Source of the DNA: Escherichia phage ECD7
Sequence record: NC_041936.1
Reading direction: 5' to 3' (one strand)
DNA length: 64,000 nt
The position numbers and the translations under genes are program-made. This document shows, piece by piece, positions 14,369 to 59,188 of the stretch. The stretch's first letter is position 1, and every line of letters starts with the position of its first letter. The notes beneath the pieces are model-generated. The model saw nothing but the letters and a program-made list of their open reading frames with translations, was not told the DNA's origin and searched no databases.

Positions 14369-14847
14369 GCTAAATCATTGCAATATTTTAGTGCCTTAGT
14401 TTGAAATTCTGCGCTGTTAAGTTCTTCATAACGGTCATAATCACCGTTTAATGCTGCCTTTCTTGCTTCTTGCTCTATCTGCATGTCAGACATGATAATA
14501 CAGCGATCCCGCGCTTTCATCTTCTCAAGTTGTATAGACTCTTCTTTCTGCTTGCGCAATTCTTCTTGACGCTTCTTTTCTTCTTGTGCTTTCTCTTCCC
14601 GCGCTTCTTTGATTGCATCCTTGAACATCTGCGTTTGTGGTGCTAAACCAACTTTAACGCGATCCACGTCTCGACGTTCCATTTTAGAAATAAAGCATGA
14701 TTCGATCTGATCATCACTTGCATATGCTGCTTTACATTCACGAAGCAAGAAAACCGGATCTGATTTAGCATTCATCATAGCTTCCATGTTGGCACAACCA
14801 GTAAGCATGAATGCAGCCGCAAGACCAATCAGTTTAATCATTTTCAT
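14362..14847 (-). CDS. predicted lipoprotein
   Basis: signal peptide with lipobox (..FMLTGCANM..), charged coiled-coil body. Confidence 0.6.
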   Translation of the reverse strand: MKMIKLIGLAAAFMLTGCANMEAMMNAKSDPVFLLRECKAAYASDDQIESCFISKMERRDVDRVKVGLAPQTQMFKDAIKEAREEKAQEEKKRQEELRKQKEESIQLEKMKARDRCIIMSDMQIEQEARKAALNGDYDRYEELNSAEFQTKALKYCNDLAK

Positions 14848-15668
14848 TTAGTCACCTCACCGAAAATTGTAAATTGTCTACGATTCTCATCGCCGAAAGA
14901 TTCTACTACGTCGTTTACCTTGACGCAAGTCCCGCGCGGTAAAATTACTTCACATTCGCAAGGGTTCCATGCAATTGACCCAACAACAAAACCTTTATGA
15001 TCTTTTACGTCAATTACCCATGATACATTACAAGAATGTTGCATCTTTCCGGTCATTGATTCATATCGATTCTCGCAATAAAGGCTAGTGCTGTTTGATA
15101 GCCATCCTCCAAAGATGATTGGTGTCATGCTGGTTGACACAAAGTTTTTAAAGGTAAATTCCTTATCTTCAATAATACGCTCTATTGTCTGAATGTCAAG
15201 ATGTTGACCGCGATAAAGAGTACCGTTTAACTTTTCGGTTTTATCCATGACACAATCCATCAAATCAACAATCTCTGATATCTCATCGGTCATGTCTTCT
15301 TCCCCTAAGAGAGCACCATTTACCCATTCGTATTGTTCGGACACATAATCACAGATTGCATTATATTCTGCTGGGGTTATGTTGTTATGTTTGTAATGTT
15401 TGAATACATTATCTCCAAAGTCTTCGGAGTGTACTTCATACATCACATTAATGATTTTCTTGACAAATCCATAATCTTGTGTCTCACGCTCAAGGAAGCG
15501 GATAACCTTCACATAATCATCAAAGTTAATCTGATCGCTGATCATCTCAGTGATCATGTAACCATTAATCCCCTCAATGTCATATGTTTCGATGTAATTA
15601 TCCATACGTTCCATCATTGATTCGCGTGATTCTTCTGAAAGACGAAAATCCTGTAATTTCTTGAACAT
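14844..15668 (-). CDS. Alt-like ADP-ribosyltransferase paralog
   Basis: 274 aa; shares YRGQ.., FKNFVSTS.., GGW and ECEVILPRG motifs with the C-terminal region of the adjacent Alt ORF (R-S-E ART signature). Confidence 0.7.
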   Translation of the reverse strand: MFKKLQDFRLSEESRESMMERMDNYIETYDIEGINGYMITEMISDQINFDDYVKVIRFLERETQDYGFVKKIINVMYEVHSEDFGDNVFKHYKHNNITPAEYNAICDYVSEQYEWVNGALLGEEDMTDEISEIVDLMDCVMDKTEKLNGTLYRGQHLDIQTIERIIEDKEFTFKNFVSTSMTPIIFGGWLSNSTSLYCENRYESMTGKMQHSCNVSWVIDVKDHKGFVVGSIAWNPCECEVILPRGTCVKVNDVVESFGDENRRQFTIFGEVTK

Positions 15669-15746: not shown

Positions 15747-17798
15747 TTACATTTTAAATTTATCTGGCATTGCGTCTACAGATACCAGATCAGCGATAAG
15801 CTGACGTAGAGTTGCCTTATCTGCTTTCTTACGTTCGGTTTTAGCTTCGCTAATGAAGCTGGAGAAAGACAGGTCAGAAGCAGGTTTAACAACACCCTCA
15901 CGGATGAATGCATCACCGTCCGCGATCATCTCACCAGATTCTTGTAATGCTGCCAGTTCACTTTTGTTCATAATATGTGCCTCAATGTAATAAGTTTCTT
16001 GTGAATCCGTCGATGCCGTAGCACGAGTTACCGTATCAAAGGATAACACAACACCGCGAGGAAGTAAAATCTCGCATTCTTTGTAAGCAAATGCTTTGTT
16101 ACCTACTGGCAATACAGGGATGTTTTCCGCGCCAGCGATAGAGAAAGCAACATTAGCGCCACCTTCACCGCGAGAGCCAGCCATAGAATCAACACCAGCA
16201 ACGGCACTAGCCACGTTTGCATTCCAGCCACCAAAAATATTAGGCGCAAGGGAAGTGCTCACATAGTTTTTAAAGTAAAACGCTTTTTGCTTACGTGCAG
16301 TTTCCCACATTTGCGACCGGAAGTCCATACCACGATACAGAATAGTACCCGGATCAAGTTTAACACCATAGTTAGAGAAGGCATTATCCAGTGCATCGCA
16401 CATCTTGACCAATTCTTCTGGATCTGCGATTCCCTCAAACTCTTCCAGCTTGCGATCAGTTAGGAAGTTGTTCATATTGATGTATGCTGCATCGGCATAT
16501 TCGCTCAACACAAAACCTTCCGCGCCCGGCAGATCAAGATCAATATCTGCCATCATTTCACCCATGTTGCTAGCAATTGCTTCAAACATACCGGACGCAA
16601 CATTACGAAGGGCATCGGTTTTAATCTGGGTGATATGACTACGCAGCATTTCAGCTTTTACATCTGCTGGCATAGACTGGTCTACTCGATCCATTGCCAG
16701 GGCGGTGATCTTGTTTTCGAATACTTCCTCGCTCATGATTTCTTTTAAGCGTTTGATTGAGGCTGCGATAACTTCCGCAGACAACGGATCATATTGATCC
16801 TGAACTTTTACCAGTTCGCTTACTGCGTATTTTGCATCGGCTTCGCTTTCAAAAATAGTACGCATGAAACCATAGCGAGTGATAATATCACTTGTCCAGT
16901 CATTCAGAGAACGGGCGGTTGAACGTTCTAAGGCTTGACGGTCAATCAGAGTATTAAACTGTTTCTTAGGTTCGGCTTCGGTGATATCTTCTTCCGGTTT
17001 AAGATTAATTTTTTCTGGATGATTCACGTAGTCGCTGTTATAGGTCGCTTGAGTTTTCAGCATTTCTTCTTTAGTCAAACGAGATTTAGCCGCTACGCGT
17101 TGTTCTGCTTCCGCGTTTCGTTCTTCTTCTGACACAAGACTAGCCGCATACGCCTCATCTTTAGTCAGAGATTCACCAGTAGCCTTAGATACCCAGCGAT
17201 CACCTAAATCACTTTCTACTTTAGTGAACAAGGATTCATCAAGTTTAATCCCTTTAATCTTATCAATCGCCATCCCGCGACGTTTGACAACAACTAAAGC
17301 GATCTTTTTGCTGGTCATTACTTCCTGCTGGAATACTTCAAACTTCGGTGTACGACGCACCAAACGCTCTATAACGCGCTTAACCAGTTCGGTCTTACCT
17401 TTCATGCGGGATACGTTAAAACGGAACATAACAGCGTCTAATTGCGCTTTACGGGCTGTTTCCATAACCACATCAAAAGCACTTGCCATAACTGCAATCG
17501 GGTTATCACCTAGACCATTTTTAAGCTGTACAATACGACCGCTTTTGTTCATTTCACACAGTACAACGTGTGCGGTCTTGTCACCCATACGAATAATTTT
17601 AGGTGTTTTGTTGGTGAAGTTGCAAAGACGGACAATCACATCTTTATCGCGTGTCTGTACTGCAAAAAGCTGTTTAGGATTCTGCTTAGGCTTTAAGCAT
17701 TGTACCGGAGCAATACTGCCAAAGTTTTCTTCCTCTTCCGTCAACAGCCATTTCTCGAAAGATTCAATCATTAGATCGTCGATTTCTAAGTTAAACAT
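15747..17798 (-). CDS. alt: Alt ADP-ribosyltransferase (internal head protein)
   Basis: 683 aa (T4 Alt about 682); LYRGMDF, FKNYVSTSLAPNIFGGW, ECEILLPRG; position between gene 54 and ligase. Confidence 0.85.
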   Translation of the reverse strand: MFNLEIDDLMIESFEKWLLTEEEENFGSIAPVQCLKPKQNPKQLFAVQTRDKDVIVRLCNFTNKTPKIIRMGDKTAHVVLCEMNKSGRIVQLKNGLGDNPIAVMASAFDVVMETARKAQLDAVMFRFNVSRMKGKTELVKRVIERLVRRTPKFEVFQQEVMTSKKIALVVVKRRGMAIDKIKGIKLDESLFTKVESDLGDRWVSKATGESLTKDEAYAASLVSEEERNAEAEQRVAAKSRLTKEEMLKTQATYNSDYVNHPEKINLKPEEDITEAEPKKQFNTLIDRQALERSTARSLNDWTSDIITRYGFMRTIFESEADAKYAVSELVKVQDQYDPLSAEVIAASIKRLKEIMSEEVFENKITALAMDRVDQSMPADVKAEMLRSHITQIKTDALRNVASGMFEAIASNMGEMMADIDLDLPGAEGFVLSEYADAAYINMNNFLTDRKLEEFEGIADPEELVKMCDALDNAFSNYGVKLDPGTILYRGMDFRSQMWETARKQKAFYFKNYVSTSLAPNIFGGWNANVASAVAGVDSMAGSRGEGGANVAFSIAGAENIPVLPVGNKAFAYKECEILLPRGVVLSFDTVTRATASTDSQETYYIEAHIMNKSELAALQESGEMIADGDAFIREGVVKPASDLSFSSFISEAKTERKKADKATLRQLIADLVSVDAMPDKFKM

Positions 17799-44779: not shown

Positions 44780-45727
44780 TTAGAACTCACCAATTTTCTG
44801 CAACATTTTAACTAACGCATTTGTTACAAAATAATTATAAATTTTACCGCGTGGTGCTGGTTTAGATTTCTCCCATGCCAACAAAATTTCATATTCGATG
44901 TTATCAGGAATAAATTCAAAATCAATAAGTTCGCGGTTTTCGTCAAAGCGTCGTGCTTCTTCCTCTGTCATCAAAGACTTTGGATCTTCGGCATCGAAAA
45001 TTTGCTCTAACCATTTGGTTGCAATTGGTTTAGCTCGTTCCCCTTCCAGTCGTGAGATAATGAAATCACTACGGCACTTGATAGAAGCTACACCGTCTTT
45101 TGCGTCACCCTTAACACATTTTACCATAAGGTCTTTGTAAGGGCTACCATATTTGCATTTCTTCCATGCTTTCTGTACTGGCGCCCACTGTTTCACATTT
45201 TTGTATTTGTGCAACTGTGTGTAGTCACCATCGCCGGAGTTGATTAGCACCTGGCGACCTTCTACAGAAAACTTTTTAGTTAACACAGCTATTATATCAT
45301 CCGCTTCAACTTTGTCAACCTTAATAACGTGATAAGGCATATTCTCTTTAAACTCTTCGGTGATCTTATTGATCGCAGCAAAGATCATCTCCCAATCACG
45401 CGGATCTGCGTCTCGTTTTTCCTTACGGTTGCGTTTATAGTAAGGGGCGATATCACGTCGCCAGTAACCTTTGCTTGAATCAAAAGCAAGTACCGTAATA
45501 GGGTATTGCTCTTTGAATTTTGTCATATTATAACGCATGGTGTCAAGAATAAGATGACGGATCATGCCTTCATTAATAGGATCTTCCGGTTTAAAGGTAT
45601 GCGAGATAGTAGCAATCATAAGCTGCGACATATCAATCAAATGCACACCCTCCGGCAGTTTATCTTCTGGATCATCGAAGAAATCATTAAGTGTAGCGGT
45701 AGTTTTTGTAAACGGGTTATACGTCAT
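44780..45727 (-). CDS. rnh: RNase H / flap endonuclease
   Basis: ..MPYHVIKVDKVEADDIIAVLTKKFSVEGRQVLINSGDGDYTQLHKYKNVKQW.. matches recalled T4 RNase H. Confidence 0.85.
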   Translation of the reverse strand: MTYNPFTKTTATLNDFFDDPEDKLPEGVHLIDMSQLMIATISHTFKPEDPINEGMIRHLILDTMRYNMTKFKEQYPITVLAFDSSKGYWRRDIAPYYKRNRKEKRDADPRDWEMIFAAINKITEEFKENMPYHVIKVDKVEADDIIAVLTKKFSVEGRQVLINSGDGDYTQLHKYKNVKQWAPVQKAWKKCKYGSPYKDLMVKCVKGDAKDGVASIKCRSDFIISRLEGERAKPIATKWLEQIFDAEDPKSLMTEEEARRFDENRELIDFEFIPDNIEYEILLAWEKSKPAPRGKIYNYFVTNALVKMLQKIGEF

Positions 45728-45729
45728 AA

Positions 45730-45915
45730 TTAAGTTCTCTCCACTCTCACAACAACATATTCGCCAAACGAGTTAGATACTTCACGATCATACCCATATT
45801 TCTCCATAACTCGCAGAATTGCATTGTTTAATTCGGCGCGGAAATAATTGTAATCCTTATCAGGGATTCTGTCAACTACCCATTTTGCACCTTCTGACAA
45901 ATCAACTTTAACCAT
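45730..45915 (-). CDS. hypothetical small protein
   Basis: 61-aa ORF upstream of rnh, same strand. Confidence 0.5.
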   Translation of the reverse strand: MVKVDLSEGAKWVVDRIPDKDYNYFRAELNNAILRVMEKYGYDREVSNSFGEYVVVRVERT

Positions 45916-45953: not shown

Positions 45954-45961
45954 TATAAATA
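45954..45961 (+). promoter_or_regulatory. T4-type late promoter (TATAAATA) for gene 34
   Basis: exact TATAAATA about 29 nt upstream of gp34 ATG. Confidence 0.6.
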
Positions 45962-51062: not shown

Positions 51063-51070
51063 CTATAAAT
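51063..51070 (+). promoter_or_regulatory. T4-type late promoter (TATAAATA) for gene 36
   Basis: exact TATAAATA about 35 nt upstream of gp36 ATG. Confidence 0.6.
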
Positions 51071-51104
51071 ACTCGGAACTATAACTAATTTTTGAGGTTA
51101 CTTT

Positions 51105-52595
51105 ATGGCAGATTTGAAATATGGATCTACTGTAGGTGGATCTCCCATTTGGACGCAAGGAAACTTGACGATCCAGCCAGCGGGGGATCAGCTTTTCTAC
51201 AAAGGTCATAAAATCTATACCGCTTTTGATAGACCTTCGGCTACCGATTTTGATGCTGTTAGTGCATCCGAAGGTGGAACATTTCAAAAGCAAGTTCATT
51301 TCGAGGAAGGTTTAAGCGTAGGTAGCGCATCGGCTGGAGAAACCAAAAAGAATGGTATCTTTAAAGGTCAGAGTGACGCTGCTAATTTTGACGGCGTAAG
51401 CTGGGGTTTGCATTCATGGAAGTCAATCGGCTTTGTTAATGCCCGTGATGGCGTTATTATGGCGTATATTGACACCACAACGGGCGAATTTAAGTCTAAA
51501 GGGACTATCGAAGGGACAACCATTAAAGACACAGGTCAACGCGTCTATAGCCCTGTTAATAAACCAACGAATAATGATTTAGATTTGGTGTCTCGTCGCG
51601 GTGATACTCTCACAGGAACATATAATTTAAACACTGTCACTGTTAAACTATCGGTTGATTCGAAATTAATTGCAAGGGAACGTGATTTAATTAATTTTGA
51701 TGCGACTAAGATCTATTATGGTAACGTTCTTGATACGTTGGTCTTCCGAAGTAAAGATGAGCCTACCATTTTTGTTAATGGCAAAGAAGGTCGTTTTTAT
51801 CACACCAACAATAAACCAACTAAAGCCGATGTTGGACTAGGAAATGTCACCAATGATGCACAGGTTAAACGTGCTGGTGATATTATGGAAGGTAACTTGC
51901 AAGCGCCTAGAATGTTGGCGACAAACGATCCTGCTGGTCCTAATGAATTGGTTCGTTTGAGCTACTTTGAGAGAAAATCAATGGTAGCAAATCCAACCAT
52001 CATAGGAAACGTTGATTGGAACACTCTTATTAATCGCGGTATCTATCGTGTGGAAAATGCTGGGTCGGGTACTAATAAACCGTCTGATAGCTATTATAAC
52101 GGCGTTTTGATGGTATATCGCCCAGAAGATGCGGTCGGCACTCGTCGAATTGTTCAGGTGTATTATCCTGAATCTATTGACCATCCGATGTGCTGGCGTT
52201 CTTGTTCTAATGAATCATGGACTGCATGGAACTATGTAGATCACCGTAAATTAGCCGATATTCGCTATGTTAACGTAACTGGCGATACCATGACAGGACC
52301 GTTAACTGTTCCGGCTGCAAACGGTGTTAGAACGGCTAAAACTAACTATAACGGGGATAACTGTTATGCGGCGTTAAGCGGTGCTGATGGTACTGCTATG
52401 ATTCACCGCATTAGTGATATTAAAGGGACCGAAAAGCTGGGGATCACCCACGACTCAAAGGTCGTGTTTTTCCGTTCTAGAAACAATACTCAAACCGTGG
52501 ACCGCTATCAGCTTTATCATGAAGGCAATAAGCCTACTCCGGCTGATGTTGGAGCGGTTCCACTTAATGCGGTGATTGATTTTGGTACTTTCTAA
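51105..52595 (+). CDS. 36: long tail fibre distal subunit gp36
   Basis: N-terminus MADLKYGSTVGGSPIWTQGN.. matches T4 gp36 N-terminus; late promoter TATAAATA 51063-51070; longer than the T4 protein as I recall it. Confidence 0.8.
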   Translation: MADLKYGSTVGGSPIWTQGNLTIQPAGDQLFYKGHKIYTAFDRPSATDFDAVSASEGGTFQKQVHFEEGLSVGSASAGETKKNGIFKGQSDAANFDGVSWGLHSWKSIGFVNARDGVIMAYIDTTTGEFKSKGTIEGTTIKDTGQRVYSPVNKPTNNDLDLVSRRGDTLTGTYNLNTVTVKLSVDSKLIARERDLINFDATKIYYGNVLDTLVFRSKDEPTIFVNGKEGRFYHTNNKPTKADVGLGNVTNDAQVKRAGDIMEGNLQAPRMLATNDPAGPNELVRLSYFERKSMVANPTIIGNVDWNTLINRGIYRVENAGSGTNKPSDSYYNGVLMVYRPEDAVGTRRIVQVYYPESIDHPMCWRSCSNESWTAWNYVDHRKLADIRYVNVTGDTMTGPLTVPAANGVRTAKTNYNGDNCYAALSGADGTAMIHRISDIKGTEKLGITHDSKVVFFRSRNNTQTVDRYQLYHEGNKPTPADVGAVPLNAVIDFGTF

Positions 52596-52665: not shown

Positions 52666-55608
52666 ATGGCAGATTTAAGCAGAATCCAATTTAAACGCAC
52701 TAGCACTAAAGGTCGTAAACCTGATGCTAGTACGATGAATCCGGGGGAATTGGCAATCAACCTTGCGGATCAATATCTTCTTACTAAAAATGATTCCGGT
52801 GCTATTATCAATTTAAGTTGTCCTCCGGTGTATGACCGCGATGTTACAATGGCGGGTAAGGTTAAAGGTAATAATTATATCTTAAGTAAAACCGCCAACT
52901 ATTTGGAAGACCAGACAGCGAGAGATCTTAACTACTTTGGCGCTTTCTGTACCAATGGTCTTGATGGTCTTCTCGAACTCACGCTAAACGTTCCTCACTC
53001 TTCCGGTGTCCAACATGGTCGAGGATTTACTTTCCAGTATGGGCACACTGGATCGCGCGTAGAAACTTATGGATATAATGCACAAGGACAAAAAGCATTT
53101 AGCTATAAAATGTATCACGAAGGTGATAAACCAACTCCAGGAGAATTGAACGTTTATAGCAAACAAGAAGTTGACCGTATGTTTGTTAAAACCGTTAAAC
53201 TTGCTACAGTTCCTGTTGATATAGTTGACGGTTATTTTAAATTAGCGACTGCGATGATTCCGCAAAACGGTCGTAGCGTATTTTTCCGTATTCATGGTGG
53301 TAACGGATATAACGTTACTGCATACGATCAAGTTGATATTGTAGAAATTGTTATTCGCAGTGGAAATAATCGTCCTAAAGGTGTTAACGTTATTGCATAC
53401 CGCCGAAATACAAACAAAGCATTTGATGTTTTGGCTGTTAATACTTCTGGTGATAACTATGATATCTACGTGAAATATCAGCGTTACACTGATAACGTTA
53501 TTGTTGAATTTGGTAAAAGTGTTGATGTTGATCTGGTAGTCCATGACGTTCCAGATTTTGTTGTTGATCGTCCTGTTGGCGATAATGTTATTGGCGGTCG
53601 CGCGGTAACTCTTTTCAACACCGAAAACAAACGAGGTGTGTTGAGTTTTGACGACAACACACAAAATAGTTATGATATTGTTCACTTGAGTAATGATAGG
53701 GGTACTGGACGGAAATATATTCGTAAATTCCGTAGCAACTATAACGAAATGATCTGGCATGAGACGGTTCAAGGTTCTACTTATCGACTCGCCACGGGTA
53801 GTACAGATGCCCAGGAGATTCTATCCGTTGAATCTAGTAGCTCTATTGCTGGGACTCATAAAGGTAATATTCTTTCTGGTCGAATGATGTTGGGTGGCGG
53901 TAGTAATGTTATTACCTTGCGGCGTCCTGCTGGTCAATCCAACCATATTACGTTTCAAGATAATCGGACTGGATCTATTACCCGTCAAGGGTGGATCGGT
54001 TATGGTAATGCTGATACTAACGTTTTTGAATGGTATAGTGATGTAGGTGGTACTTCTATTCGTCACCACATCGACGGACAGATCGAACTTGCAACCGGTA
54101 ACACAAAACGAGTTTATACTAACGCTCAATTCATCTCAATGAATAGCAACGCCTACCGTATGCTATACGGTAATTATGGTGCATTCTGGCGTAATGACGG
54201 CGTTAAAGTTTATCTTCTTTCTACTGCCGAAAATGATAAATTGGGTGGATGGAATAGCTATCGTCCATTCATTTATGATTTAACTTCCGGTAACGTTCAA
54301 TTAGGCGGTGATGGTAACGAAGATGCATTAACGTTAGAACTTGCTTCTCGTGCCGCTCGCTTTAGTAATGACGTTTACATTAAGAAAGGGCATTTGACTT
54401 TCGACGCTGGGCGCTCTGGATCTCGCGATTACTTCCGGTTTAACCATTGGGGTGATAGCAATAATGCCCGTGATAACATTCTATATCTAGAAGACAGTAA
54501 AGGTCGACATTTTAGCACCGAGCGTAATATGGCAACGGGTGCATTAAAAGCCGACTTCTTAGGCGATCTTGAAGTTGGTGGTAAGTTGACATGGGGTAAA
54601 AATACAGCTACATCTAGCTTTAATATTCGTGCATGGGGTAGTGATTCTCGTAAGCAAGTATTAGAATGCGCGGATGAAAGTGGTTGGCATTGGTATACCC
54701 AACGTGCTGGCGGTCCAGGTACTGAATTAATCGATTTTGCCATTAATGGTACTGTTAAGCCTAAAGCAATTCACACTGGCGGTAATATTACCCTGAACGG
54801 TCCTGATATTGAGTTTAAACGCGCTGGCAATAAGCACATCTGGTTTAGAGATCCAGACGGTTTAGAGTTAGGCTTGATGTACTGCGATGATGCTGGTGCT
54901 ATTCGATTCCGTGGTCAGAAACAAGCCCAAGCGTGGAAATTTGCAGATAAAATGATCCAGTTGGAATCTGGTACTGTAACCGGTGGCGGTAATGGCCTGA
55001 TTCGTGGTGAAGTTGCTGGCGGTAGTTGGGCTAGCTGGCGTGACCGTGCTGCTGGCCTTATGGTTGGGTGTCCTCAATCCACCAACTCGGCACATAACGT
55101 ATGGAAAGCGACGCATTGGGGTAAATATCACATTGCAGCAATGGCTGTACATGTTCCTGATGGTACTATTACCAATGCTTTAGCTCGCCTAAACGTTCAT
55201 GACGCCAACTTTGACTTTAGCGCATCCGGTGACTTGTCGGCAGGTCGTAACGGTTCGTTTAACGATGTGTATATTCGTTCTGATGCTCGCCTTAAAATCA
55301 ATAAGGAAGAGTATAAGGAGAATGCCACCGATAAAGTTAATCGCTTGACGGTATACACCTATGACAAGGTTAAATCTTTAACCGACCGTACTGTCATTGC
55401 TCATGAAGTTGGTATTATTGCTCAGGATCTTGAAAAAGAATTGCCGGAAGCCGTAACAACTTCTAAGATCGGCGACCCAGATAATCCAGAAGAGATCTTA
55501 ACAATTTCTAACTCTGCTGTCAACGCTCTTTTAATTAAGGCGTTTCAGGAAATGAGCAAAGAATTGAAAGCCGTTAAAGCTGAACTAGCAGAACTTAAAA
55601 AGAATTAA
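52666..55608 (+). CDS. 37: long tail fibre distal subunit gp37 with C-terminal intramolecular chaperone domain
   Basis: N-terminus ..IQFKRTSTKGRKPDASTMNPGELAINL.. matches T4 gp37; C-terminus ..YIRSDARLKINKEE.. to end resembles peptidase S74 autoproteolytic chaperone domains. Confidence 0.85.
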   Translation: MADLSRIQFKRTSTKGRKPDASTMNPGELAINLADQYLLTKNDSGAIINLSCPPVYDRDVTMAGKVKGNNYILSKTANYLEDQTARDLNYFGAFCTNGLDGLLELTLNVPHSSGVQHGRGFTFQYGHTGSRVETYGYNAQGQKAFSYKMYHEGDKPTPGELNVYSKQEVDRMFVKTVKLATVPVDIVDGYFKLATAMIPQNGRSVFFRIHGGNGYNVTAYDQVDIVEIVIRSGNNRPKGVNVIAYRRNTNKAFDVLAVNTSGDNYDIYVKYQRYTDNVIVEFGKSVDVDLVVHDVPDFVVDRPVGDNVIGGRAVTLFNTENKRGVLSFDDNTQNSYDIVHLSNDRGTGRKYIRKFRSNYNEMIWHETVQGSTYRLATGSTDAQEILSVESSSSIAGTHKGNILSGRMMLGGGSNVITLRRPAGQSNHITFQDNRTGSITRQGWIGYGNADTNVFEWYSDVGGTSIRHHIDGQIELATGNTKRVYTNAQFISMNSNAYRMLYGNYGAFWRNDGVKVYLLSTAENDKLGGWNSYRPFIYDLTSGNVQLGGDGNEDALTLELASRAARFSNDVYIKKGHLTFDAGRSGSRDYFRFNHWGDSNNARDNILYLEDSKGRHFSTERNMATGALKADFLGDLEVGGKLTWGKNTATSSFNIRAWGSDSRKQVLECADESGWHWYTQRAGGPGTELIDFAINGTVKPKAIHTGGNITLNGPDIEFKRAGNKHIWFRDPDGLELGLMYCDDAGAIRFRGQKQAQAWKFADKMIQLESGTVTGGGNGLIRGEVAGGSWASWRDRAAGLMVGCPQSTNSAHNVWKATHWGKYHIAAMAVHVPDGTITNALARLNVHDANFDFSASGDLSAGRNGSFNDVYIRSDARLKINKEEYKENATDKVNRLTVYTYDKVKSLTDRTVIAHEVGIIAQDLEKELPEAVTTSKIGDPDNPEEILTISNSAVNALLIKAFQEMSKELKAVKAELAELKKN

Positions 55609-55650
55609 GGAAAATTCCCAGGGAAGGGAAACTACTAAGGAGAAACGGCT

Positions 55651-55890
55651 GTGGTCTATAATATCATCATTGGTGCTTTGTCTAATTTCGGAATGAAATT
55701 ATTGTCAAAGTTAATTAGTGAAAAGATGCTCACTAAAATTTTCTTCTACTGCGCTCGTCGTCTTGCGGCTTATACCAATACGCCAATTGATGATCGTTTT
55801 GTGGAAGAACTTTATAAGGAGTTTAATAAAGATCAGTCAGAAGATAGTAACGAGCAAGATAAACCTAGTGATAGTCAAGTACCTAAATAA
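55651..55890 (+). CDS. hypothetical small protein (GTG start)
   Basis: 79 aa, AAGGAG SD 8 nt upstream of GTG; hydrophobic N-terminus, acidic tail; occupies the gp38 position but is not gp38-like. Confidence 0.4.
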   Translation: MVYNIIIGALSNFGMKLLSKLISEKMLTKIFFYCARRLAAYTNTPIDDRFVEELYKEFNKDQSEDSNEQDKPSDSQVPK

Positions 55891-55923
55891 GAGTACACTG
55901 TCATAGTTATCTTAGGGCATTAT

Positions 55924-56580
55924 ATGCAAGTTTCTGAAAAAGAGAAAGACTTTGCTATCTCAAATGTCCTGCGCGCTATTTTCACAACTAAAAGCACGGA
56001 GTTGCTCGTACTTCGTGTTTTTGCTGCCGTCGTGTTGTCCATATTGGCATTTGTCGTTTATAGTAAAAACGAGTTATTTGCGCTTTATAAAGAGACTCGT
56101 TATGAGACTTATGCTCACATTCTCCAGGTAGAGAAAGACCGCAATTTTGATAATGCAGCACAGGAGCAGTTACAGATAGTTCATGTGTCGGCTGATGCCG
56201 ATTTTTCTGCTGTTTTTAGTTTTCGTCCGAAAAACCTAAACTATTTTGTTGATTTGGTGGCATATGAAGGAAAGCTACCGCACACAATCGATGAAAAAAA
56301 TTTAGGCGGATTCCCTATCAATAAAACGAGTGAAGAATATCGTAGGCATCTTTTAGGTAAATCATATTTTACCGATAAAGATTTCCAGTATATTCCATCA
56401 AGAGAAAAGAAATTAGAGAATATCGATATAGGTTTCATGTATTCTTGTCCTATATTCAATCTCGATAATGTCTATTCTGGTAGTATCGCCATTTCATGGA
56501 AGAATAAACCGGATATTGACATTGAGAATTTAGATACTCTTTGCAATCAATCTGCCAGAATCCTCGGAAGGATTAGATAA
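55924..56580 (+). CDS. t: holin T
   Basis: 218 aa; ..YETYAHILQVEKDRNFDNAAQEQLQIVHVSADADFSAVFSFRPKNLNYFVDLVAYEGKLP..ARILGR matches recalled T4 holin T. Confidence 0.85.
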   Translation: MQVSEKEKDFAISNVLRAIFTTKSTELLVLRVFAAVVLSILAFVVYSKNELFALYKETRYETYAHILQVEKDRNFDNAAQEQLQIVHVSADADFSAVFSFRPKNLNYFVDLVAYEGKLPHTIDEKNLGGFPINKTSEEYRRHLLGKSYFTDKDFQYIPSREKKLENIDIGFMYSCPIFNLDNVYSGSIAISWKNKPDIDIENLDTLCNQSARILGRIR

Positions 56581-56585
56581 CTTAA

Positions 56586-56617
56586 AGGGGAAGCCTTTCG
56601 GCCTCCCCTTCTTTTTA
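56586..56617 (+). terminator. rho-independent terminator downstream of holin t
   Basis: GGGGAAGCCTTTCGGCCTCCCC hairpin followed by TTCTTTTTATT. Confidence 0.65.
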
Positions 56618-58429: not shown

Positions 58430-59188
58430 TTACTTGCAAACGTATTGATCTACATCAATTGCGCCACCGAATGTGGGATGACGTTTTTCAAATCGAATAG
58501 TTCCGTCGTTTGGTTCGAAAACGGAGTATTCATATAGATCTTTCTTGCCAACATTCTTATAAAACCCACCTTTAGTCATAACGGTTTCTTGTACGTTTGC
58601 TTTGTGTACGTTGTATTCGTCAATGTATACAAAATCAACCATCTTCCCATTTTTAATGGTTACTTTAAGATCTCCTGGCTGGTTTCCATATTTTGCATAC
58701 AGTGGAGCCTCTTTAATTTTTGTGGAAATTCCATCTTTCATACTCCACTCATAACGAACGGTGCATTGATAGGTAAAAGTTTCGACCTTCGGTTCTTCTA
58801 CCACTTTTGCTTCCTGTTTCGGTTGTTCTTCTTCAACCTTCGCAGAAGTCTCTGAATCTCTCTCTGACTCGGTTTCTTCTTTAGGTAATACATTCATCAA
58901 GTTTTGGATTTGAGCGTTATATACAACCTCCAGTGGCTGAATCTGCCCGATATTGATCATTGTATCACGAACAGTTTTATTCCAGTTGCGTTGCTCTTGT
59001 TTAAGAGACGGATCAATCTTAACAGCCTTAACATATACCTCATGAAGTTTCGAATCCAGTGCGGAGATTGACTCATTAGCACAAATAAACTTCTCTGATT
59101 TGGTAGTGGCTTTAGCGCAATCAAAGGACGCAGCATTAGCACCGAAAGCAGTAGCGGAAAGAACGATAGCAGCGATAATGTTTTTCAT
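58430..59188 (-). CDS. secreted protein with DUF1311 (LprI-like) N-terminal domain, tentative
   Basis: cleavable signal peptide MKNIIAAIVLSATAFGANAAS; ..FDCAKA..FICANE..LD..L..Y......QRNW..RD.. pattern; promoter cassette upstream. Confidence 0.55.
   Translation of the reverse strand: MKNIIAAIVLSATAFGANAASFDCAKATTKSEKFICANESISALDSKLHEVYVKAVKIDPSLKQEQRNWNKTVRDTMINIGQIQPLEVVYNAQIQNLMNVLPKEETESERDSETSAKVEEEQPKQEAKVVEEPKVETFTYQCTVRYEWSMKDGISTKIKEAPLYAKYGNQPGDLKVTIKNGKMVDFVYIDEYNVHKANVQETVMTKGGFYKNVGKKDLYEYSVFEPNDGTIRFEKRHPTFGGAIDVDQYVCK

What the first reader, a model, noticed from the sequence alone, without database searches (positions are those of the whole stretch)
55279..55608. gp37 ends in an intramolecular chaperone (S74-like) domain and no gp38 homolog follows
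The last 109 residues of gp37 (..VYIRSDARLKINKEEY.. to the end) match the self-cleaving chaperone domains of endosialidase and T5-type fibres, with the expected cleavage-site serine in RSDARLK. T4 instead uses the separate gp38. Here the gp38 position holds only a 79-aa ORF (55651-55890). So the mature receptor-binding tip would be the region just upstream of about residue 872, with a different fibre assembly mechanism from T4.
Basis: partly seen in the sequence, partly recalled or inferred. Interest (0 to 1): 0.5.

Follow-up and report, generated by a model that had tools for sequence, protein, structure and literature searches.

The report
Self-cleaving chaperone on RB49-type gp37
The long tail fibre protein of this RB49/Phi1-like coliphage does end in a self-cleaving folding domain, but this is the known T2/S16-type arrangement: a separate gp38 adhesin, encoded far away in related genomes, caps the cut fibre tip and binds the receptor.

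Summary
gp37 (52666-55608, 980 aa) ends in a Peptidase_S74 intramolecular chaperone domain (aa 872-980). The Pfam match is E 1.3e-11, 45 bits against a cut-off of 22. The Ser872/Lys877 pair is invariant in 28 homologues, and the predicted fold matches solved chaperone domains. No gp38 of either kind is in the window. The slot before holin t holds a 79-aa ORF.

The window is a Krischvirus (94.6% identical to Phi1). In RB49, Phi1 and the other close relatives checked, a T2-type gp38 adhesin lies about 106 kb from g37, outside this window. Another Krischvirus, G2494, has g37(IMC)-g38-ORF79-t, so the 79-aa ORF coexists with g38 and does not replace it.

The strand before the cut (DVYIR|SD) is invariant in the genus. 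Published alignments with phage S16 place the gp38 docking face there. RB49 host-range mutations map to gp38. So the receptor binder is most likely gp38, not the gp37 tip.

Both the displaced g38 and the self-cleaving domain are already published (Trojet 2011; Efimov 2022). The finding is real but ordinary. The only open item is the 79-aa ORF family, which often sits beside lysis genes.

The parts
52666..55608 (+). gene 37, long tail fibre distal subunit precursor (980 aa plus stop)
   Evidence: ORF. phrog_1699, E 3.8e-197. 93% protein identity to Phi1 and Makalu_001 gp37.
54007..54276 (+). Gp34_trimer-like domain in the gp37 shaft (aa 448-537)
   Evidence: Pfam PF21446, E 9.7e-24. PDB sequence hits to T4 gp34 (4uxe, 5nxf) and Mu fibre protein S (5yvq).
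54946..55278 (+). distal tip of mature gp37 (aa 761-871), inferred to carry the gp38 docking face
   Evidence: 64-94% identical to nine other Krischvirus gp37. This is moderately variable, not the most variable part. The docking role is inferred from phage S16 (PMC7917993).
55264..55278 (+). DVYIR strand (aa 867-871), the last residues of mature gp37
   Evidence: Invariant in 10 Krischvirus gp37. The same pentapeptide precedes the predicted cut DVYIR^SDGRLKI in gp38-bearing fPS phages, and it aligns to the S16 cut DLNVS^SDRRIKK (PMC7917993).
55279..55281 (+). Ser872 codon: predicted nucleophile and first residue of the released chaperone (cut R871|S872)
   Evidence: First position of the Pfam S74 match. 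Invariant in 28 homologues.
55294..55296 (+). Lys877 codon: predicted general base of the Ser-Lys dyad, five residues after Ser872
   Evidence: Invariant in 28 homologues. The dyad role is taken from what I know of endosialidase, T5 and MyRF chaperone domains.
55279..55605 (+). intramolecular chaperone (Peptidase_S74) domain, aa 872-980
   Evidence: Pfam E 1.3e-11. 95-99% identical across Krischvirus. Fold matches 7dc3, 3gud and 3gw6. Sequence match to S16 gp37 in 6f45_A, E 8.6e-6.
55651..55890 (+). 79-aa ORF of unknown function (RB49 ORF252 homologue, phrog_402). Not a gp38 substitute.
   Evidence: phrog_402, E 4.6e-20. Coexists with g38 in Krischvirus G2494 and in L018. No similarity to either gp38 type.
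55924..56580 (+). gene t, T-type holin (218 aa)
   Evidence: Pfam Phage_holin_T, E 5.3e-61.
51064..51071 (+). T4-type late promoter motif TATAAATA upstream of g36, the likely start of a g36-g37-ORF79-t late transcript (inferred)
   Evidence: Exact motif matches at 45954 (before g34) and 51064 (before g36), none between g37 and t. The window-wide count equals chance, so only the positions are suggestive.

Best explanation
This is the T2/T6/S16-type long tail fibre tip in its RB49 (Krischvirus) layout. gp37 is made as a 980-aa precursor. Its last 109 residues are an S74-type intramolecular chaperone that helps the three chains fold into the trimeric fibre. The chaperone then cuts itself off between Arg871 and Ser872, using a Ser872/Lys877 dyad. 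The cut exposes a flat tip formed by three copies of the DVYIR strand. One copy of the gp38 adhesin docks there through its N-terminal tryptophan-bearing attachment domain. The glycine-rich C-terminal domain of gp38 binds the receptor (OmpA or certain O antigens in RB49-like phages). In this lineage g38 is not next to g37. It lies about 106 kb away, outside the window. The 79-aa ORF between g37 and t is an unrelated resident gene. Shown here: the domain, the catalytic residues, the fold, the absence of g38 from the window, and its presence in the relatives examined. Inferred: the cleavage itself, gp38 docking, and the presence of g38 in the unseen part of this genome.
For: The S74 match is above the curated cut-off. 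Ser872, Asp873 and Lys877 are invariant in 28 homologues. The predicted fold matches the solved chaperone domains 7dc3, 3gud and 3gw6. The C-terminus matches the S16 gp37 construct 6f45_A, aligning DVYIRSDARLK with DLNVSSDRRIK. [quoted passage not shown] It predicts the same for the motif DVYIR^SD. The chaperone domain is 95-99% identical across 10 Krischvirus gp37, and the last residues before the cut, NDVYIR (aa 866-871), are invariant. RB49p079 is a GP38 plus Gp38_N protein. Homologues are present in 24 of the 30 close relatives listed, including Phi1 at 44992-45765. Krischvirus G2494 and IMG/VR contig L018 carry g37(IMC)-g38-ORF79-t in one block. The RB49-type site in G2494 is empty, which gives one g38 per genome in the two layouts examined. 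Literature: displaced g38 in RB49 (PMC3157838); self-cleaving domain followed by a gp38 monomer, and gp38 E230K host-range mutants (PMC9569957); Krischvirus gp38 variants determine OmpA, Tsx or OmpF use (PMC12032242).
Against: The g38 gene of this particular phage was not seen. It is absent from the 64-kb window, and the exact gp37 protein is not on record in the contig index. Its presence is therefore an extrapolation from relatives that are 74-93% identical in gp37. No cleavage or virion data for a Krischvirus gp37 were found in the searchable literature. Processing is inferred from S16 and T2. The structure model is a monomer of a domain that works as a trimer, and confidence is low for aa 761-796.
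Confidence: 0.9

Rival explanations
1. First reader's model (T5 pb1-like). After the chaperone is removed, the gp37 tip itself (the region just upstream of residue 872) binds the receptor, and this phage has no gp38 adhesin.
For: No gp38 of either type is in the window. T5-type fibres with an S74 chaperone bind receptors with their own tip (my knowledge; PMC11990801 describes such T5-like receptor-binding domains with an attached chaperone). The tip aa 761-871 does vary, 64-94% among relatives.
Against: The Krischvirus genomes examined encode one GP38-family adhesin each. RB49 host-range mutations map to gp38 (PMC9569957). The residues next to the cut are invariant, as expected for a docking face rather than a receptor-binding loop. 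The most variable part of gp37 is the shaft, aa 381-480, not the tip.
Confidence: 0.04
2. The 79-aa ORF in the g38 slot is a novel fibre chaperone or adhesin that takes over a gp38 function.
For: It sits directly after g37, with a good ribosome-binding site. In Ounavirinae a homologue also follows a tail fibre gene. For the small ORFs that follow the duplicated g37 genes of Aeh1, which were not shown here to be related to ORF79, Trojet et al. raised the chaperone or adhesin possibility (PMC3157838). It shares the heptapeptide EELYKEF with T4 gp38.
Against: It coexists with g38 in G2494 and L018. The Ounavirinae fibre next to its homologue has a T4-type gp37_C tip and no S74 domain. Other homologues sit directly after endolysins, or in capsid and packaging modules with no fibre nearby. 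The comparison with the T4 gp38 family profile is null (hhalign probability 0.45%, E 0.13), and the heptapeptide is not conserved in that family.
Confidence: 0.05
3. The S74-like domain is a non-cleaving relic, and gp37 keeps its full C-terminus in the virion.
For: Cleavage was not observed here, and no Krischvirus virion proteomics was found.
Against: The Ser and Lys residues are invariant. The whole domain is nearly 100% conserved within the genus while the rest of gp37 is mosaic, which points to strong functional constraint. An uncut chaperone would cover the gp38 docking face described for S16 (PMC7917993).
Confidence: 0.02

Closest known systems
RB49 / Phi1 gp37 (Krischvirus long tail fibre distal subunit) with g38 displaced
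   Same: Same gene order, g36-g37-small ORF-t. gp37 is 93% identical to Phi1 gp37 and 76% to RB49 gp37. The chaperone domain is 96-99% identical and the cut motif is the same.
   Different: Only allelic mosaic differences in the shaft (aa 381-480 and 620-720). The g38 locus of this phage lies outside the window and was not seen.
Salmonella phage S16 gp37-gp38 tip (PDB 6F45) and T2/T6 gp37/gp38
   Same: A C-terminal chaperone of about 110 residues (113 in S16) is removed by self-cleavage before an SD..K motif. A monomeric gp38 adhesin with GP38 and Gp38_N domains caps the tip (PMC7917993; PMC3157838).
   Different: In S16, T2 and T6, g38 lies directly after g37. Here the adjacent slot holds an unrelated 79-aa ORF, and in relatives g38 is about 106 kb away. 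The residue before the cut is Arg here (DVYIR|S), whereas S16 has Ser (DLNVS|S).
Endosialidase (K1F endoNF), GA-1 neck appendage and MyRF intramolecular chaperone domains (Peptidase_S74; PDB 3GW6, 3GUD, 7DC3)
   Same: Same Pfam family, the same Ser-x4-Lys motif at the domain start, and the same predicted fold ending in a long C-terminal helix.
   Different: The upstream passenger here is a T-even fibre tip that must later accept an adhesin, not a tailspike enzyme or a transcription factor. Sequence identity is only 12-21%.
T4 gp37 plus gp38 chaperone
   Same: Same position in the fibre and a homologous N-terminal and shaft region. A Gp34_trimer-like domain is present in both.
   Different: T4 gp37 ends in Collar and fibre-repeat needle domains with no S74 match. 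It needs the separate 183-aa gp38 chaperone, which has no counterpart in the window.
T5 L-shaped tail fibre pb1
   Same: A fibre with a C-terminal S74 chaperone that is cleaved off.
   Different: In T5 the exposed tip itself binds the receptor. Here the relatives encode a separate adhesin. The structural match to the T5 tip (4uw7) is insignificant (E 1.9).

Membership tests
Peptidase_S74 / intramolecular chaperone (IMC, ICA) domain | Profile match above the curated family threshold | tested here: met
   PF13884, E 1.3e-11, 45 bits against a cut-off of 22, covering aa 872-931 and profile positions 1-58 of 58.
Peptidase_S74 / intramolecular chaperone (IMC, ICA) domain | Ser nucleophile at the domain start with Lys five residues downstream (S-x4-K dyad) | tested here: met
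   S872-D-A-R-L-K877. Ser, Asp and Lys are invariant in 28 homologues and in 10 Krischvirus gp37.
Peptidase_S74 / intramolecular chaperone (IMC, ICA) domain | Located at the extreme C-terminus of a trimeric fibre or spike protein | tested here: met
   aa 872-980 of 980, downstream of a tail-fibre shaft.
Peptidase_S74 / intramolecular chaperone (IMC, ICA) domain | Characteristic fold, as in 3GW6, 3GUD and 7DC3 | tested here: met
   AF2 model with pLDDT 85-95 over most of the domain. Foldseek hits: 7dc3 E 5e-5, probability 1.0, TM (target) 0.64-0.68; 3gud probability 0.99-1.0; 3gw6 probability 0.5-0.8.
Peptidase_S74 / intramolecular chaperone (IMC, ICA) domain | Autoproteolytic release after trimerisation | not testable with these tools
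   Needs virion SDS-PAGE or mass spectrometry, or expression of wild-type against S872A protein.
T2/T6/S16-type fibre tip (processed gp37 capped by gp38 adhesin) | gp37 with a cleavable C-terminal chaperone and a conserved strand before the cut | tested here: met
   DVYIR|SDARLK. Identical to the DVYIR^SD motif of gp38-bearing fPS phages and aligned to the S16 cut (PMC7917993).
T2/T6/S16-type fibre tip (processed gp37 capped by gp38 adhesin) | A GP38-family adhesin gene (Gp38_N attachment domain plus glycine-rich domain) in the same genome | tested here: inconclusive
   Absent from the 64-kb window (best tblastn E 16). Present in the close relatives checked, either at a site that maps outside the window or next to g37. 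The rest of this genome was not available.
T2/T6/S16-type fibre tip (processed gp37 capped by gp38 adhesin) | g38 immediately downstream of g37 (the usual layout, not essential to the mechanism) | tested here: not met
   The 79-aa ORF and then t follow g37. This is the known RB49 layout (PMC3157838).
T4-type fibre tip (gp37 needle tip plus gp38 chaperone) | gp37 C-terminal Collar/needle (or gp37_C-type) receptor-binding domains | tested here: not met
   No Collar, gp37_C or Phage_fiber match in this gp37. T4 gp37 has Collar and Phage_fiber domains.
T4-type fibre tip (gp37 needle tip plus gp38 chaperone) | T4-type gp38 assembly chaperone gene | tested here: not met
   tblastn of T4 gp38 against the window: best E 0.67. 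hhalign of the ORF79 family against the T4 gp38 family: probability 0.45%.
T5 pb1-type fibre (chaperone-bearing fibre whose own tip is the receptor binder) | No separate adhesin; receptor specificity maps to the fibre tip | tested here: not met
   Tested on relatives only. They encode gp38, and RB49 host-range mutants map to gp38 (PMC9569957).

The most novel reading that the evidence does not exclude
The 79-aa ORF between g37 and t (phrog_402; precomputed Pfam PF26925) belongs to an uncharacterised family of small three-helix proteins that is part of phage lysis modules, for example a holin partner or regulator, or a membrane-active helper. In Krischvirus it sits directly before holin t. In three unrelated lineages it sits directly after an endolysin. 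In one T7-like layout it sits directly before the small terminase gene, which is the holin slot of T7. A second, much less likely novel reading (about 0.03) is that this phage lacks gp38 altogether and binds its receptor with the processed gp37 tip.
Probability: 0.25. Interest if true: 0.35.

Novelty: already known. Interest (0 to 1): 0.1.

Why it matters
Which protein sits at the fibre tip decides how host range should be predicted or engineered. For this phage the target is gp38, encoded elsewhere in the genome, not the end of gp37. The case also shows a limit of reading a single window: 'no gene follows' does not mean 'no gene exists'. In Krischvirus the adhesin gene is found at one of two places, next to g37 or about 106 kb away. 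Nothing here changes current understanding of T-even fibre assembly.

Tried and rejected
1. I looked for gp38 inside the window. ORFs of 200-310 aa were scanned with Pfam and two unassigned ones were translated. RB49 gp38 was then run by tblastn against the window. Nothing was found.

2. I looked for a T4-type gp38 chaperone in the window by tblastn. Nothing was found.

3. ORF79 aa 40-59 and T4 gp38 aa 105-124 share EELYKEF (pairwise blastp E 0.001). I tested whether ORF79 is a remnant of T4-type g38. The motif is not conserved in 11 T4-type gp38 proteins, and the profile-profile comparison is null (probability 0.45%, E 0.13). I rejected this as chance.

4. I tried to find the source genome through an exact-protein look-up of gp37. 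It is not on record.

5. The structure prediction of ORF79 was too weak to use (pLDDT 59.5), so no fold search was run on it. NCBIfam and the local Pfam copy give no family for it. PF26925 appears only as a precomputed label and in no searchable paper.

6. The first idea that ORF79 always travels with lysis genes was weakened by Grimontviridae and L053, where it lies among capsid, tail and adaptor genes.

7. Desplats et al. 2002 (PMC135041) could not be read because it is not held.
Full report
**What is there**

The window is a Krischvirus (RB49/Phi1-like, family Straboviridae). The 3.9-kb stretch 52666-56600 is 94.6% identical to phage Phi1 and 93% to the Makalu phages and RB49-type isolates. 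All have the same annotated order: g37, a hypothetical protein, holin t.

gp37 is the 980-aa ORF 52666..55608 (phrog_1699, E 3.8e-197). Pfam finds two domains in it. One is a Gp34_trimer-like domain at aa 448-537. The other is Peptidase_S74 ('chaperone of endosialidase') at aa 872-931, with E 1.3e-11 and 45 bits against a curated cut-off of 22.

Base 55279, the start of the finding, is the first base of the Ser872 codon. The sequence reads ...N-D-V-Y-I-R | S872-D-A-R-L-K877.

**Is it a genuine intramolecular chaperone domain?**

A search with aa 761-980 returned 40 proteins, and every one is labelled PF13884. In an alignment of 28 of them, Ser872, Asp873 and Lys877 are invariant.

An AlphaFold2 model of aa 761-980 has mean pLDDT 76, and 85-95 over most of the chaperone part. 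Its best matches among solved structures are:
- the MyRF ICA domain 7dc3 (E 5e-5, probability 1.0);
- the GA-1 chaperone 3gud (probability 0.99-1.0);
- the endosialidase chaperone 3gw6.

By sequence, the C-terminus also matches chain A of 6F45, the gp37 tip construct of Salmonella phage S16 (E 8.6e-6). That alignment places DVYIRSDARLK on DLNVSSDRRIK.

Every family-defining feature I could test is met. Only the cleavage itself is untestable here.

**Where the interpretation goes wrong**

The window indeed holds no gp38 of either kind. tblastn with the RB49 gp38 adhesin gives a best E of 16, and with the T4 gp38 chaperone 0.67.

The lineage does have an adhesin, however. RB49p079 (NC_005066 45367-46143, minus strand) is a 258-aa protein with Pfam GP38 (E 7e-72) and Gp38_N (E 6e-18). 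Homologues at 81-100% identity occur in Phi1 (44992-45765), JSE, Makalu_001/002/003, E26, Sf20, GEC-3S, 011D4 and others, always far from g37.

gp37 starts at Phi1 position 151643 and at window position 52666. The window therefore corresponds to roughly Phi1 99-163 kb, and the adhesin gene falls outside it.

This layout is published:
- Trojet et al. [quoted passage not shown]
- Efimov et al. [quoted passage not shown] They isolated RB49 host-range mutants with gp38 E230K (PMC9569957).
- A 2025 study ties Krischvirus gp38 variants to OmpA, Tsx and OmpF use (PMC12032242).

**Further tests made here**

1. *Variation along gp37.* If the region before residue 872 bound the receptor, it should be the hypervariable part. 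In 10 Krischvirus gp37 it is not. The most variable stretch is the shaft, aa 381-480 (mean pairwise identity 0.37-0.56). The tip, aa 761-860, is at 0.65-0.73. The residues next to the cut, NDVYIR (aa 866-871), are invariant, and the chaperone domain is 95-99% identical.
   Salem et al. [quoted passage not shown] They predict the same cut at DVYIR^SDGRLKI in gp38-bearing phages (PMC7917993). The pentapeptide here is identical.

2. *Coexistence of g38 and ORF79.* Krischvirus vB_EcoM_G2494 (and IMG/VR contig L018) has the order g37, g38, ORF79 homologue, t. Its g37 has an S74 domain and the cut motif ...FSDVYIR|SDSRLK. Its g38 is 266 aa, with GP38 E 1.1e-65 and Gp38_N E 6e-20.
   In G2494 the RB49-type site is empty. 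Only 61 bp separate the homologues of RB49p078 and RB49p080.
   So in the genomes examined the genus carries one g38 in one of two places. The chaperone-bearing gp37 and gp38 go together, and the 79-aa ORF is a resident neighbour of t, not a replacement for g38.

3. *General fibre chaperone.* RB49 also encodes a gp57A-type tail fibre chaperone (RB49p127), again outside the region matching this window.

**Mechanism, with shown and inferred steps**

- Shown: the S74 domain, the conserved Ser/Lys pair, the chaperone-like fold, the invariant pre-cut strand, no g38 in the window, and g38 in the relatives examined.
- Inferred from S16, T2 and endosialidase work: the domain drives trimer folding and is then cut off at R871|S872. 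Three DVYIR strands form the docking face. One gp38 docks through its N-terminal domain (RB49 gp38 starts MAIKAGWVGSSAVSETGQRW...). The glycine-rich domain of gp38 then binds the receptor.
- Inferred from motif positions: g36, g37, ORF79 and t are probably read from the late promoter motif at 51064, since no TATAAATA lies between g37 and t.

I put the confidence in this explanation at 0.9. The main gap is that the g38 gene of this exact phage was not seen.

**The 79-aa ORF**

ORF79 belongs to phrog_402 (E 4.6e-20). It carries a precomputed label, PF26925, that is not in the local Pfam copy. It has homologues in 386 phage records.

Conserved features are an N-terminal weakly hydrophobic helix, an FF pair and a T-x-T-x-x-D-D-x-F motif. 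The Kyte-Doolittle 19-residue maximum is 1.3-1.6, compared with 2.9 for the holin T membrane helix. The structure model is poor (pLDDT 59.5, three helices).

Its neighbours vary by lineage:

| Lineage or locus | Position of the ORF79 homologue |
|---|---|
| Krischvirus | directly before holin t |
| Ounavirinae | between a T4-type tail fibre without S74 and a 124-aa single-TM coiled-coil protein annotated as holin (phrog_4038, unknown function) |
| L004, L057 | directly after a GH108 plus PG_binding_3 endolysin |
| L054 | directly after a Phage_lysozyme endolysin |
| L056 | directly before a T7 gp18-like small terminase gene, which is the holin slot in T7 |
| Grimontviridae, L053 | among capsid, tail and adaptor genes |

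A lysis-related role is the best guess, but it is not established.

A shared heptapeptide with T4 gp38 (EELYKEF) was tested and rejected as chance.

**Verdict**

The arrangement is already described for RB49-like phages, so novelty is nil and interest is low.

Noticed in passing
window 55651-55890 (+); L003 3992-4189; L004 4004-4213; L054 1021-1230; L056 2992-3183; L057 3001-3150: The 79-aa ORF family (phrog_402, precomputed PF26925) has a conserved FF pair and a T-x-T-x-x-D-D-x-F motif. It recurs directly before holin t (Krischvirus), directly after endolysins in three unrelated lineages, and directly before a T7 gp18-like small terminase gene (the T7 holin slot). It also occurs among capsid and tail genes in Grimontviridae. 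The function is unknown; a lysis-module role is plausible.
   Followed up: partly
L059 (MK327935.1 154661-161558) and L060 (43000-51000); L018 144-3930: The position of g38 is polymorphic within Krischvirus. G2494, G5211 and L018 carry g38 between g37 and the 79-aa ORF, and in G2494 the RB49-type distant site is empty. RB49, Phi1 and others have the reverse. The g37-end plus g38 module in L018 (the G2494-type block) is about 88-91% identical in DNA to several other T-even-type coliphages such as vB_EcoM_WL-3 and MLP2, whose genera were not checked. This suggests the tip module was acquired by exchange.
   Followed up: partly
window 52666-55608, especially 53806-54105 (aa 381-480) and about 54520-54830 (aa 620-720): gp37 is strongly mosaic among Krischvirus. 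Shaft segment aa 381-480 drops to 31-40% identity against RB49, JSE, 011D4, W115 and Delraymugoa, while the flanks stay above 75%. GEC-3S gp37 is 58 aa shorter. The shaft also holds a Gp34_trimer-like domain shared with T4 gp34 and Mu protein S.
   Followed up: partly
protein P0021 (303 aa, E. coli record, 25.7-kb contig, alignment): One ORF joins a gp38 N-terminal attachment domain and part of the glycine-rich domain to a gp37 pre-cut strand and a complete S74 chaperone (precomputed PF21721, PF05268 and PF13884). It could be a recombinant, a frameshifted call or a misassembly.
   Followed up: no
window 58430-59188 (-): A 252-aa ORF among the early genes downstream of t matches Pfam LprI (lysozyme inhibitor), with E 1.1e-5 and 26 bits against a cut-off of 22, over aa 24-76. 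This is an unusual domain for a phage early gene.
   Followed up: no
window 51105-52595 (+): gp36 is 496 aa here, whereas T4-type gp36 is about 220 aa (PMC3157838). Its match to Pfam Phage_T4_gp36 is below threshold (21 bits against 26). Its first 40-80 residues resemble the N-termini of several gp37-type fibre families in PHROGs.
   Followed up: no
window 14844-15668 (-) and 15747-17798 (-): A 274-aa ORF with an ADP-ribosyltransferase exoenzyme domain (E 4.3e-16) lies next to a 683-aa ORF. By position the larger one may be the Alt ADP-ribosyltransferase homologue, but I did not scan it. Together they may be a tandem pair of ADP-ribosyltransferase genes.
   Followed up: no
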